Assembly (NCBI GenBank): GCA_036392135.1
Contig: DASVYO010000088.1
Location: 13,131 to 77,130 of the forward strand
DNA from: Solirubrobacteraceae bacterium
GTDB lineage: Bacteria; Actinomycetota; Thermoleophilia; Solirubrobacterales; Solirubrobacteraceae
Direction: 5' to 3'
Length of the DNA: 64,000 nucleotides
Position numbers and translations under genes: made by a program. Positions 5,513-28,042 of this stretch are shown in pieces. The first letter of the stretch is position 1. Every line of letters begins with the position of its first letter. The notes beneath the pieces were generated by a model. That model made no database searches and was not told the DNA's origin. It saw nothing but the letters and a program-made list of their open reading frames with translations.

Positions 5513-5574
5513 GCCCGTGGGCCGCCGCGGCCCGGCGTCCGCAGGCTGCGCCCACATCGCGGCCCGGGCCACAC

Positions 5575-5622
5575 CCAATCTGGCGCCCACCCCGTCCAGA
5601 TCCGAAAGGTGCGCGCCAGATT
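5575..5622. repeat. REP-like hairpin, related to the repeats at 27800-27912
   Basis: Arms AATCTGGCGC (5577-5586) and GCGCCAGATT (5613-5622) are perfect complements. The loop contains AGATCCG, and the 48-nt unit aligns with 27863-27910. Confidence 0.75.
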
Positions 5623-5688
5623 CCCCTCCACGGCCCGGCGAGCGGGCGCCCCACGAGACAGCCCGGCGACCCGGCGACCCGGGGATCT

Positions 5689-26856: not shown

Positions 26857-26896
26857 GCGTCGCGCTCCCGTCTCGTTCACAGCGCCGCTCCCCGCC

Positions 26897-27832
26897 TCAC
26901 CGGGCCGCTCCCAGCATGCGCGCGACCTCGGCGATCACCACCAGCGGCTCCCGCACGAGCTGGTCATAGGTGAAGCGCAGCACCGTCAGGCCGGCGGCCC
27001 GGAGCTGGGTGTCCTTGCGATGGTCGTGCTCGAAGGCCCGATGGGTGGAGTGGAAGCGATACCCGTCGATCTCGACGACCAGGTTCCGGGCCGGCCACCA
27101 GAAGTCCACCTCGTAGCCGGCCACGCGCACGTTGACCTGGGGCGGCGCCAGCTGGGCCTGGCGCACCAACTCCAGGAACAGCTCCTCGGCCTGGGAGCGG
27201 GTGAGCGTGGTCCCGTGCTGTCGCTCGAGCAGGGTCGCGAGCCGGGCCGCGCCCGCGCGCCCGCGCGTCCGGCCCAGCAGCTCCACCAGGTCGTCGGTGC
27301 GCACGATCCGGGCCACCAGCCCGCGGTCGAGGGCCAGCTCGAGCTGGCGCGGGGTGAGCTCCTCGGCTTCATCCAGCAGCGTGCGGGCCGGGGAGGTCAC
27401 CGGAAGCCCCCTGCGGATGCGGATGTCCCGAGGCCGCAGGTCGCGGGCGCGGTGGATGACACACCCGTCAACCCGCCGGTGGGCCCCGTTGGCGACGACA
27501 GCATCGATGGGGCGGGTGGCATCCCTCGGCCGCATGTCCCATATCGACGCCGCGGCGTGATGACTGAGCGCGGCACCGTCCGGGAGCGCCAGCAGCACGG
27601 CCGTCTCCTGGCCCAGTTCGACCGGGCTGGTGTGACCAACGGCAAACACACCGCCAGGAAGCGGGGTGAGCGAGCCGCGCTTCACCGCCCGCGAGATGAC
27701 CTTGTATTCGAGCCCCGCCGCCCGCAGCTGGTGCCGCGCGACCCGTCCGCGCTGAAGCCGGGCGATGGCCGCGATCCTCTCGTCCCGCGTCCCGGAAACG
27801 ACCAATCCTGCGCGCACCCCGAGGACCTTCAC
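26897..27832 (-). CDS. AbiEi-family wHTH + DUF559 (Vsr-like) endonuclease domain protein
   Basis: N-terminal RLQRGRVARHQLRAAG...GVFAVG (AbiEi-type), ALSHHAAA..W, VTSPARTLLD, C-terminal VDFWWP...VEIDG..FH...D..KD..L...G..VLRF. Start is GTG 27832, GTG 27817 or TTG 27805. Confidence 0.85.
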   Translation of the reverse strand: MKVLGVRAGLVVSGTRDERIAAIARLQRGRVARHQLRAAGLEYKVISRAVKRGSLTPLPGGVFAVGHTSPVELGQETAVLLALPDGAALSHHAAASIWDMRPRDATRPIDAVVANGAHRRVDGCVIHRARDLRPRDIRIRRGLPVTSPARTLLDEAEELTPRQLELALDRGLVARIVRTDDLVELLGRTRGRAGAARLATLLERQHGTTLTRSQAEELFLELVRQAQLAPPQVNVRVAGYEVDFWWPARNLVVEIDGYRFHSTHRAFEHDHRKDTQLRAAGLTVLRFTYDQLVREPLVVIAEVARMLGAAR

Positions 27833-27912
27833 GACGTGCGCGCCACGGTGGTCGGAATCCGACCAATCCTGCGCGCACCCCGGAGATCCGCCTGAGGTGC
27901 GCGCAGGATTGG
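27800..27912. repeat. Tandem REP-like palindromic units at the 5' end of the AbiEi-DUF559 gene
   Basis: 21-nt direct repeat GACCAATCCTGCGCGCACCCC at 27800 and 27861. Perfect 17-bp inverted repeat 27863-27879 / 27896-27912. Degenerate right arm GTGCGCGCCACGGTGGTCGGA at 27836-27856. Confidence 0.85.
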
Positions 27913-27988
27913 GCGGTTGGGGCGGCACCCACCGGACTCTGACGCCCTTTTCCGCCCCCACTCCTCCCCAGCTGCCTTTTTTCACACA

Positions 27989-28028
27989 ACCGCCAACGCC
28001 CGTGACCGAATCGTCACGGGCCGGCGGT
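27989..28028 (-). terminator. Long hairpin downstream of fumC, probable intrinsic terminator
   Basis: GCCCGTGAC-CGAATC-GTCACGGGC 9-bp stem extended by ACCGCC/GGCGGT, 15 nt after the fumC stop. Confidence 0.55.
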
Positions 28029-28042
28029 GATGGCGGGGGTGG

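What the first reader, a model, noticed from the sequence alone, without database searches (positions are those of the whole stretch)
26897..27912. Solo AbiEi-DUF559 nuclease gene capped by tandem REP-like hairpins: candidate nuclease-plus-palindrome system
Seen: the gene encodes an AbiEi-type wHTH fused to a DUF559/Vsr-like nuclease (VDF...VEIDG..H). No AbiEii toxin lies next to it; it sits between two housekeeping genes (ALS, fumC). Its 5' end carries two repeat units with a 61-nt period. Unit 2 is a perfect 17-bp hairpin (CCAATCCTGCGCGCACC-16 nt-GGTGCGCGCAGGATTGG). Unit 1 has an identical left arm and a decayed right arm, and the junction GTCGG-AAT-CCGAC is itself palindromic. Unit 1 overlaps the probable start codons. 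Established: RAYT transposases with REP/BIME arrays and Ssn GIY-YIG nucleases with their repeats are single enzymes flanked by the hairpins they act on. Inference: this may be an analogous system with a different nuclease fold, either mobilising or processing hairpin DNA or autoregulating through it. The repeats lack the GTAG tag of RAYT-type REPs.
Basis: partly seen in the sequence, partly recalled or inferred. Interest (0 to 1): 0.75.

Follow-up and report, generated by a model that had tools for sequence, protein, structure and literature searches.

The report
Nuclease gene with its own dispersed palindromes
A soil actinobacterium's gene for a DNA-binding nuclease starts inside a double palindrome laid out like a known repressor binding site. 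Gene-less copies of that palindrome lie scattered through the genome, so protein and repeat look like a matched pair that may explain how such repeats spread.

Summary
Two 61-nt units (27799-27858, 27859-27916) overlap the 5' end of a minus-strand gene (26897-27832). Unit 2 is a perfect 17-bp palindrome.

The protein is a full AbiEi-like body fused to a Vsr/DUF559 nuclease. It has no AbiEii partner and lies between ALS and fumC.

The "decayed" arm is not decay. It is the consensus second arm of a repeat family with 13 loci in this genome, mostly two-unit arrays. The four arms (21 bp, 16-17 bp spacer, 3 bp between pairs) copy the layout of the proven operator of the AbiEi homologue Rv2827c.

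The gene-repeat link is not chance:
- Five syntenic orthologous loci keep both units, with compensatory changes.
- Close homologues in other species, and other paralogues in this genome, carry their own private palindromes over the start, with gene-less copies of their own.
- Arms are conserved among the gene-less copies (81-85%); spacers are not (40%).
- Copies have been gained or lost between this genome and a relative that holds the orthologue.

There is no RAYT and no Rfam match.

Best reading: a cognate operator or binding site that has multiplied like a REP. Autoregulation by the winged helix is likely. Any role of the nuclease in spreading copies is inferred only. I found no description in the literature searched.

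The parts
26897..27832 (-). Gene for an AbiEi-like (winged-helix plus AbiEi C-domain) protein fused to a Vsr/DUF559 nuclease. It is 311 aa from GTG 27832; a gene caller used GTG 27817, giving 306 aa.
   Evidence: ORF. DUF559 E 6e-10. The N-terminal V-x-VLG...VSG motif is conserved in homologues, so translation starts at or near 27832. AF2 pLDDT 92.5. Fold matches to 6Y8Q, 1ZEL, 3R3P and 3HRL. D243, E254, D256 and H261 are invariant or nearly so in 99 homologues.
27799..27818 (.). Arm 4 (Y type, CGACCAATCCTGCGCGCACC). It lies inside the coding sequence and encodes residues GVRAGLV.
27819..27835 (.). 17-bp spacer of the start-proximal pair. It holds the start codon (GTG, reverse complement of 27830-27832) and the conserved KVLG codons.
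27836..27855 (.). Arm 3 (Z type, GTGCGCGCCACGGTGGTCGG).
27856..27858 (.). 3-bp gap (AAT) between the two inverted-repeat pairs, at the centre of the GTCGG/CCGAC junction palindrome.
27859..27879 (.). Arm 2 (Y type, CCGACCAATCCTGCGCGCACC).
27880..27895 (.). 16-bp spacer of the upstream pair.
   Evidence: Its G>T variant at 27882 occurs in two soil metagenomes.
27896..27916 (.). Arm 1, GGTGCGCGCAGGATTGG(GCGG), the perfect complement of arm 2.
27917..27998 (-). Conserved non-coding stretch upstream of the palindromes (GGTTGTGTGAAAAA..., CGTCAnAGTCC). It is the probable promoter region of the gene; no sigma-70 consensus was found.
   Evidence: Conserved in five syntenic orthologous loci. The promoter scan was empty.
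27999..28020 (-). Short hairpin CCCGTGAC-GATTCG-GTCACGGG, 21 nt after the fumC stop. It is the likely fumC terminator and is not part of the repeat family.
5570..5632 (+). Single gene-less copy of the same repeat family elsewhere in the window (G000:C88:18700-18762).
   Evidence: Covariance model R1, E 6.5e-8; sequence shown.

Best explanation
The two 'hairpin units' are four ~21-bp half-sites arranged as two inverted-repeat pairs. The spacer inside a pair is 16-17 bp, the gap between pairs is 3 bp, and the period is 61 bp. They run from about -85 to +34 of the start codon (27916-27799, start at 27832).

The gene's product is a complete AbiEi-like DNA-binding protein with a Vsr/DUF559 nuclease fused to its C-terminus.

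Most likely the protein binds these arms as duplex DNA through its winged helix and represses its own expression. AbiEi and Rv2827c do this on operators of the same layout. This step is inferred from geometry, position, conservation and homology.

The same four-arm module also exists as 12 gene-less copies in this genome and about 11 in a relative that holds the orthologous gene. Their arms are kept and their spacers are not, and copies differ between the two genomes. Other paralogues and orthologues have private palindromes with gene-less copies of their own. Gene and palindrome family are therefore a cognate pair, and the palindrome behaves like a REP-type dispersed repeat. These points are shown.

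The fused nuclease is the only candidate enzyme on hand for nicking the bound sites and so copying, homogenising or moving them. That step is inference only.
For: Layout. Rv2827c binds two pairs of 23-bp inverted repeats with 13 bp inside a pair and 4 bp between pairs, at -1..-131 (PMC7319586). Here the figures are 21 / 16-17 / 21 / 3.

Protein. Fold matches are AbiEi 6Y8Q (202 columns, E 1.4e-4), Rv2827c 1ZEL (226 columns), I-Bth0305I 3R3P (TM 0.78) and DUF559 3HRL. AbiEi_4 hits 49 of 99 homologues.

Conservation. Five syntenic fumC-gene-ALS loci keep both units. 88% of cells are paired, 8 of 31 pairs changed on both sides, and 0-2 of 500 shuffles reach this.

Family-wide pattern. Among 55 homologue loci of the genus, a palindrome of score >=10 lies in the 5' window in 24, in the gene body in 4 and in the 3' window in 5.

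Cognate dispersed copies.
- This family: 13 loci in G000 and about 12 in G047.
- Homologues' own 5' repeats recur in their own genomes: G008 at >=14 loci, G013 at 4, G005 at 3.
- The 5' elements of own paralogues C18, C118, C99 and C80 recur too. That is 5 of 7 against 6% of 700 gene-start windows, P 1.7e-5.

Arms versus spacers. Arms are 81-85% identical between loci, spacers 40%, with a random expectation of 28%.

Turnover. G000 and G047 share 3 sites; at least 4 are G047-only and 3 are G000-only.

No other mobiliser. There is no Y1/RAYT transposase in a 96.6%-complete genome.
Against: - No binding, repression or cleavage has been tested. The operator reading rests on analogy.
- No sigma-70-type promoter was found over the palindromes.
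- Half the module lies inside or beyond the start codon, whereas the Rv2827c operator lies wholly upstream.
- A plain autoregulator does not need gene-less copies. Two of these sit between convergent genes, where nothing can be regulated at initiation.
- Gene-less copies are co-oriented with local transcription at 8 of 9 loci between same-direction genes (my tally). This hints at an RNA-level or insertion-polarity effect.
- Co-occurrence of gene and family (G000 and G047 yes, 40 relatives no) is confounded by phylogeny. G047 is the closer lineage: fumC 94% against 88%.
- An earlier check in this scan, on another lineage, found repeat pieces in a gene-less genome.
Confidence: 0.55

Rival explanations
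1. Selfish cassette or homing model. The wHTH-nuclease gene is itself the mobile thing. It cuts its cognate palindrome and is copied next to it. Gene-less copies are landing pads, or solo remains left when the gene is lost.
For: - Gene positions are not syntenic across the genus, with 2-12 copies per genome.
- The gene lies between convergent ALS and fumC, which are only 10-45 nt apart in three relatives. Other small genes (GNAT, DUF1707) fill the same gap elsewhere.
- Copies exist that keep the 5' element plus the first codons: C130 and C172 in G000, and a ~300-nt remnant behind a hairpin in G047 (L127).
- The nuclease domain's best structural match is the homing endonuclease I-Bth0305I (PMC3239194).
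- One homologue (L080) is framed by the same 52-bp palindrome on both sides.
- The protein evolves fast (68-75% identity) beside neighbours at 92-95%.
Against: - The gene has stayed at one site in five lineages.
- Only 1-2 of 55 loci in this genus are framed on both sides, so there is no homology for homing on the 3' side.
- The 12 gene-less copies of this family end exactly at the repeat edges, with no gene remnant.
- One arm encodes conserved N-terminal residues. The palindrome is therefore part of the gene, not a pre-existing target.
Confidence: 0.2
2. RNA-level elements. The hairpins act in transcripts. At the gene they form a 5' structure that holds the start codon in its loop and controls translation. 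At the gene-less sites they act as 3'-end terminators or stabilisers, like the mycobacterial TRIT motif. The link to the gene would then be indirect.
For: - Nearly all gene-less copies lie 35-125 nt after a stop codon.
- 8 of 9 copies between same-direction genes are co-oriented with transcription (my tally).
- TRIT is a dispersed, conserved palindrome at actinobacterial gene ends (PMC3152330).
- Folding is strong, z -5.9, with compensatory changes.
Against: - No U tract and no terminator-like site were found.
- The arms are conserved in sequence, and the 3-5-nt internal mismatch is conserved too. Selection for pairing would not keep a mismatch.
- G-T cells are not enriched among departures from pairing: 6 of 24.
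- This model does not explain why each paralogue has its own palindrome at its own start.
- There is no Rfam family match.
- The one metatranscriptome gave no pieces over the hairpins.
Confidence: 0.15
3. Coincidence. A genome-wide REP-like or terminator repeat happens to lie next to one of several ordinary DUF559 genes.
For: This was my first reading. The flanks of the 13 loci are unrelated, and none of the other six paralogues lies at a copy of this family.
Against: - The arrangement is kept in five orthologous loci.
- Analogous private repeats sit at the starts of homologues in at least four other genomes and at four other paralogues here.
- The gene-start control gives 6%, P 1.7e-5.
- One arm is coding sequence for conserved residues.
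Confidence: 0.03

Closest known systems
AbiEi / Rv2827c antitoxin-repressors and their inverted-repeat operators (type IV AbiE toxin-antitoxin systems)
   Same: The predicted fold of residues ~1-200 matches both solved structures. Homologues hit AbiEi_4 and AbiEi_1. The operator layout is the same: two pairs of ~21-23-bp inverted repeats in tandem at the gene start.
   Different: - There is no AbiEii (DUF1814) toxin gene.
- A Vsr/DUF559 nuclease is fused to the C-terminus.
- The module extends into the coding sequence.
- The operator has gene-less copies across the genome, which I did not find reported for AbiEi or Rv2827c.
REP/REPIN-RAYT systems of Proteobacteria
   Same: One gene is paired with a lineage-specific family of extragenic palindromes made of inverted arm pairs. 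Copies are dispersed at gene ends, arranged in tandem, and turn over between related genomes.
   Different: - There is no Y1 transposase.
- There is no GTAG tag.
- Copy number is low: 13 loci.
- Repeats lie on the 5' side only and overlap the start codon.
- The enzyme fold is unrelated (PD-(D/E)xK, Vsr-like).
TRIT, the 'tuberculosis Rho-independent terminator' motif (Gardner et al. 2011, PMC3152330)
   Same: It is a conserved dispersed palindrome at actinobacterial gene termini, mostly bidirectional. Its authors suspected that an unknown factor binds it.
   Different: TRIT is reported only in Mycobacterium, overlaps stop codons (about -8), has 147 copies and has no gene linked to it. Here the copies lie 35-125 nt after stops and a cognate gene is evident. 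Sequence relatedness was not tested.
I-Bth0305I, EDxHD/Vsr-like homing endonuclease (PMC3239194)
   Same: A Vsr-like catalytic domain (TM 0.78) is joined to a separate DNA-binding region. The gene sits at a variable, inserted position.
   Different: It is not inside an intron or intein. Its DNA-binding part is AbiEi-like. Its presumed sites are repeated palindromes, not a unique site in a conserved gene.

Membership tests
AbiEi family (Pfam AbiEi_4 / AbiEi_1; type IV TA antitoxin) | N-terminal AbiEi-type winged helix and AbiEi C-terminal domain | tested here: met
   The window protein scores 14.9 bits against AbiEi_4, below the cut-off of 25. However, 49 of 99 close homologues hit AbiEi_4 and 14 hit AbiEi_1 at E<=0.001. 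The AF2 model (pLDDT 92.5) matches 6Y8Q and 1ZEL over 200-226 columns.
AbiE type IV toxin-antitoxin system | Adjacent AbiEii (DUF1814 nucleotidyltransferase) toxin gene in one operon | tested here: not met
   The neighbours are a TPP enzyme (ALS) and fumarase C, both here and in four orthologous loci.
AbiEi/Rv2827c-type operator | Pairs of ~23-bp inverted repeats at the promoter or start, bound by the protein, giving negative autoregulation | tested here: inconclusive
   Geometry and position match: 21/16-17/21/3 against 23/13/23/4. The palindromy is kept by compensatory change. Binding and repression cannot be tested with these tools.
DUF559 / Vsr-like PD-(D/E)xK nucleases | Domain match and conserved catalytic-type residues | tested here: met
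   PF04480 E 6e-10, above the cut-off. PDB 3HRL E 5e-5. Fold matches to 3R3P, 3HRL and 1CW0. D243, E254 and H261 are invariant and D256 nearly so in 99 homologues. Activity was not tested.
REP/RAYT (REPtron) | RAYT (Y1 transposase, PF01797) gene | tested here: not met
   No match in the own genome, which is 96.6% complete. The control genomes gave hits.
REP/RAYT (REPtron) | Repeats flank the gene on both sides and carry a conserved GTAG-type 5' tag | tested here: not met
   Repeats lie on the 5' side only. Only 1-2 of 55 loci in the genus are framed on both sides. The consensus has no GTAG.
REP/RAYT (REPtron) | Lineage-specific dispersed extragenic palindromes cognate to one gene | tested here: met
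   13 loci in G000 and about 12 in G047. None were found in 40 relatives, nor in two public collections beyond chance hits. Other genes have private families.
MITE | Terminal inverted repeats matching a parental IS, with target-site duplication | tested here: inconclusive
   No parental transposase gene lies next to any copy. One clean filled/empty pair (G047 L120 against G000 C51) shows no clear duplication. Other empty sites are too diverged to read.
Rfam RNA families | Match to a curated covariance model | tested here: not met
   The best hit was 28 bits against a gathering score of 60; the hits were chance hairpin matches.
TRIT | Mycobacterium-restricted palindrome overlapping stop codons | not tested
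   No TRIT model or sequence was on hand. The position differs here, at 35-125 nt after stops (PMC3152330).

The most novel reading that the evidence does not exclude
wHTH(AbiEi)-Vsr/DUF559 proteins would be the missing partners of REP- and TRIT-like palindromic repeat families in Actinomycetota. Each protein recognises a private four-arm palindrome that also serves as its own operator. By nicking bound sites it would seed, homogenise and move gene-less copies. This would be a RAYT-independent protein-repeat system built on a repressor fused to a mismatch-type nuclease.
Probability: 0.3. Interest if true: 0.85.

Novelty: new variant of a known kind. Interest (0 to 1): 0.66.

Why it matters
How short palindromic repeats arise and spread in genomes without RAYT transposases is an open question. 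So is the identity of whatever recognises conserved terminator-like palindromes such as TRIT in actinobacteria. This locus gives a concrete pair to test: one small protein and one 124-bp site.

The comparative evidence for the pairing is strong:
- orthologues keep the site, with compensatory change;
- paralogues have private sites;
- copies turn over between close genomes.

The locus also links the well-studied AbiEi operator architecture to a repeat family. That suggests repressor binding sites can themselves proliferate.

If the nuclease acts at these sites, the family would be a new class of sequence-programmed DNA-binding nucleases, each with a long and easily read recognition site.

Tried and rejected
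- **Coincidence with a generic REP.** This was my first reading. I rejected it.
- **CRISPR-like array** (61-nt period, variable 16-nt inserts). Rejected: there are only two units per locus, the arms are inverted copies of each other, and the copies are scattered.
- **RAYT.** None found.
- **Rfam.** No family matched.
- **Pattern scans of public collections.** The species-genome and JGI metagenome scans gave only chance hits, one of them inside a coding region.
- **Second copy of the repeat at the 3' end of the gene or its paralogues.** None in this genome. In the genus, 1-2 of 55 loci have one.
- **Regulon idea.** Genes next to gene-less copies are unrelated housekeeping genes: acyl-CoA dehydrogenase, biotin carboxylase, DAHP synthase, MFS transporters, recA and a Ser/Thr kinase. 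No transposase is among them.
- **Spacer flip-flop (inversion) between copies.** There is a slight excess of reverse-complement matches, but it is not significant (P 0.04-0.10).
- **Presence/absence or inversion variants in eight soil metagenomes.** None seen. Only assembled contigs were available, and these hide rare forms.
- **Exact insertion boundaries from empty sites in G047.** The intergenic DNA is too diverged, except for one pair.
- **Promoter and terminator consensus scans.** Both empty.

Full report
**Observation**

The sequence is as described. Window 27799-27916 holds two units with a 61-nt period.
- Unit 2 is a perfect 17-bp palindrome with a 16-nt spacer (27863-27879 and 27896-27912).
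- Unit 1 has the identical left arm (27802-27818) and an imperfect right arm (27836-27855).
- The junction GTCGG-AAT-CCGAC is palindromic.
- As single-stranded DNA the stretch folds at -47.7 kcal/mol, z -5.9.

The minus-strand ORF ending at 26897 hits DUF559 above Pfam's cut-off. It lies between an acetolactate-synthase-type gene and fumC.

**The repeat is a genome-wide family**

The genome is 3.23 Mb in 175 contigs, 70.7% G+C and 96.6% complete. It belongs to Solirubrobacteraceae, going by the names sources give to homologues.

Motif searches and a covariance model (R1) find 13 loci:
- ten two-unit arrays with the same 61-nt period (C8, C9, C21, C50, C71, C88 [this locus], C114, C120, C148, C169);
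- one diverged pair (C35);
- two singles (C126, and C88:18700, which is window 5570-5632).

The flanks of these loci are unrelated. The consensus is CCGGCCAATCCTGCGCGCACC-N16-GGTGCGCGCCCCAGTGGTCGG-TTT. A perfect second arm occurs only in the last unit at three loci.

Other properties of the family:
- Most copies lie 35-125 nt after a stop codon, and two lie between convergent genes.
- The neighbours are unrelated housekeeping genes. One copy lies upstream of recA.
- The genome has no Y1/RAYT transposase.
- Rfam has no match.
- Forty relatives of the genus and order, the species-genome collection and the JGI metagenomes show nothing beyond chance hits.

At this stage I read the adjacency to the gene as coincidence.

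**What changed that reading**

*1. The palindrome is part of the gene.* The N-terminus V-x-VLG-x5/6-VSG-x-R is conserved in close homologues from other species and in the consensus of 99 homologues. Third-position codon variation shows it is conserved as protein. In this gene the spacer of unit 1 encodes the start and KVLG, and the arm 27799-27818 encodes GVRAGLV.

*2. Orthologues keep it.* Four metagenomic lineages carry the syntenic arrangement fumC-gene-ALS. Their proteins are 68-75% identical to this one, while the neighbouring genes are 92-95% identical. All keep both units in register. 88% of cells are paired, 8 of 31 pairs changed on both sides, and 0-2 of 500 shuffles reach this. Slid controls give 23-58%.

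*3. Homologues elsewhere have the same architecture with other sequences.*
- G013 has arms of 20 nt and a 16-nt spacer holding the start, with a 61-nt period.
- G005 has arms of 19 nt and a 19-nt spacer.
- G022 has arms of 30 nt and a 17-nt spacer.
- G008 has three 51-nt tandem units.

Across 55 homologue loci of the genus, palindromes pile up over the start. A palindrome of score >=10 lies in the 5' window in 24, in the gene body in 4 and in the 3' window in 5. At score >=14 the counts are 7, 0 and 0.

*4. Those private repeats are dispersed too.* A chimeric query shows at least 14 further loci in G008, 4 in G013 (colinear two-unit arrays), 3 in G005 and 1 in G022.

In this genome, paralogues C18 and C118 each have their own palindrome at the start, with three gene-less copies each. 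The 5' ends of C99 and C80 also recur. That makes five of seven paralogue starts that carry a repeated element, against 6% of 700 control gene starts (P 1.7e-5).

*5. The arms are maintained.* Between loci the arms are 81-85% identical and the spacers 40%, with 28% expected at random.

*6. Copies turn over.* G047 holds the orthologous gene and about 12 loci of the same family.
- Three gene-less copies sit at orthologous sites in both genomes (C148, C8, C21).
- At least four are G047-only, and the G000 gap at those sites is 36-41 nt.
- C9, C71 and C114 are G000-only.
- One G047 copy is followed by a ~300-nt remnant of a paralogue.

**The gene**

The ALS-fumC gap is empty in three same-genus genomes, where the two stop codons are 10-45 nt apart. 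It holds a GNAT gene in one genome and a DUF1707 gene in another. The nuclease gene is therefore an insertion, inherited within a subclade.

The AF2 model (pLDDT 92.5) matches AbiEi (6Y8Q) and Rv2827c (1ZEL) over ~200-226 columns. Its last ~95 residues match the Vsr-like homing endonuclease I-Bth0305I (3R3P), DUF559 (3HRL) and Vsr. D243, E254, D256 and H261 are invariant or nearly so. Each genome of the genus has 2-12 paralogues.

**Mechanism**

Beck et al. showed that Rv2827c binds two tandem pairs of 23-bp inverted repeats, with 13 bp inside a pair and 4 bp between pairs, at -1..-131. AbiEi binds two 23-bp repeats 3 bp apart. Both repress their own operons (PMC7319586). The module here measures 21/16-17/21/3.

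I therefore read the "hairpins" as duplex half-sites of an AbiEi-type operator. This is inferred. What is unusual is that the operator has multiplied as a REP-like family, and that every paralogue examined tends to have its own. The fused nuclease is the obvious candidate agent for this, but nothing here shows that it acts on the sites.

The rivals are a homing or cassette model and an RNA-level (TRIT-like) role. Each has some support. Gene-less copies are co-oriented with transcription at 8 of 9 loci between same-direction genes (my tally).

**Literature and earlier notes**

- Full-text searches for DUF559 gave 25 papers, none on this arrangement.
- One paper lists DUF559 proteins as 14-fold enriched among predicted inversion targets. 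That fits inverted repeats reaching into these genes (PMC9881135).
- TRIT is the nearest published dispersed palindrome in actinobacteria (PMC3152330).
- Earlier AI notes of this scan describe similar hairpin-framed DUF559 genes in over 100 genomes, and one check there did not meet its co-occurrence test. I treated these notes as leads only.

**RNA data**

One soil metatranscriptome gave two exact 151-nt pieces inside the 5' half of the gene and none over the hairpins. Eight soil metagenomes hold the locus without structural variants, but only as contigs.

**Verdict**

The gene-palindrome link is real and recurs across the family. The most likely working is cognate binding and autoregulation at an operator that has proliferated. 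The nuclease's part in this remains open.

Noticed in passing
window 26857-28042 (ALS stop to fumC stop): The gap between convergent ALS and fumC is a hot spot for small accessory genes in the genus. It is empty (10-45 nt, with a shared terminator hairpin) in G017, G015 and G008. It holds a GNAT acetyltransferase gene in G005 and a DUF1707 gene in G019.
   Followed up: partly
G000:C169:22331-22455 (outside the window): One gene-less two-unit copy of the repeat lies roughly 100-250 nt upstream of recA. It is unknown whether this affects recA expression.
   Followed up: no
G000:C18:24515-24555, C43:3576, C101:14317, C128:31022; C118:932-972, C148:10277, C78:13776, C44:9933: Two further small palindrome families, GGGTCCCAAAC-N15-GTTTGGGACCC and GGCCGAGAAAGCGGAA-N7-TTCCGCTTTCTCGGCC. 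Each has one copy at the start of a different wHTH-DUF559 paralogue and three gene-less copies.
   Followed up: partly
G000:C130:51177-51290, C113:75470-75585, C172:6465-6510: Short copies of the 5' ends of paralogues C99 and C80, most of them including the first codons, with no gene behind them. They look like remnants or partial copies of gene starts. At the C172 site, G047 has a copy of the main repeat family instead.
   Followed up: partly
junctions of the two-unit arrays (alignment); window 27856-27858: The 3-bp centre between the pairs is TTT at six loci and AAA or AAT at four. Some spacers share 7-8-mers only in reverse complement. This is what inversion between the inverted arms would produce, but the excess is not significant.
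   Followed up: partly
L014 = G008:C9:143627-143863 and >=14 other G008 loci: The 59%-identical homologue in G008 is preceded by three 51-nt tandem units (AAACCTGCGCC.AGCCCAGT.AA.CGACCACGGCCGCCAGCCGTGGTCCGA). These form a larger dispersed family in that genome, and none lies at its other five paralogues.
   Followed up: partly
G000:C71:3145-3600 (outside the window): The C71 copy of the repeat lies next to two tRNA-like genes. This was seen by eye in the flank sequence and was not run through a tRNA finder.
   Followed up: no
L100 (G047:C4), fumC and ALS: In the NCBI MAG GCA_963723585.1, both fumC and ALS align in two pieces in different frames and were called as shortened genes. These are probably assembly frameshifts.
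   Followed up: no
window 27512-27830: A soil metatranscriptome (run X9) holds two exact 151-nt pieces covering the 5' half of the nuclease gene. One ends 2 nt from the GTG start. This is too little to call a transcript end.
   Followed up: no
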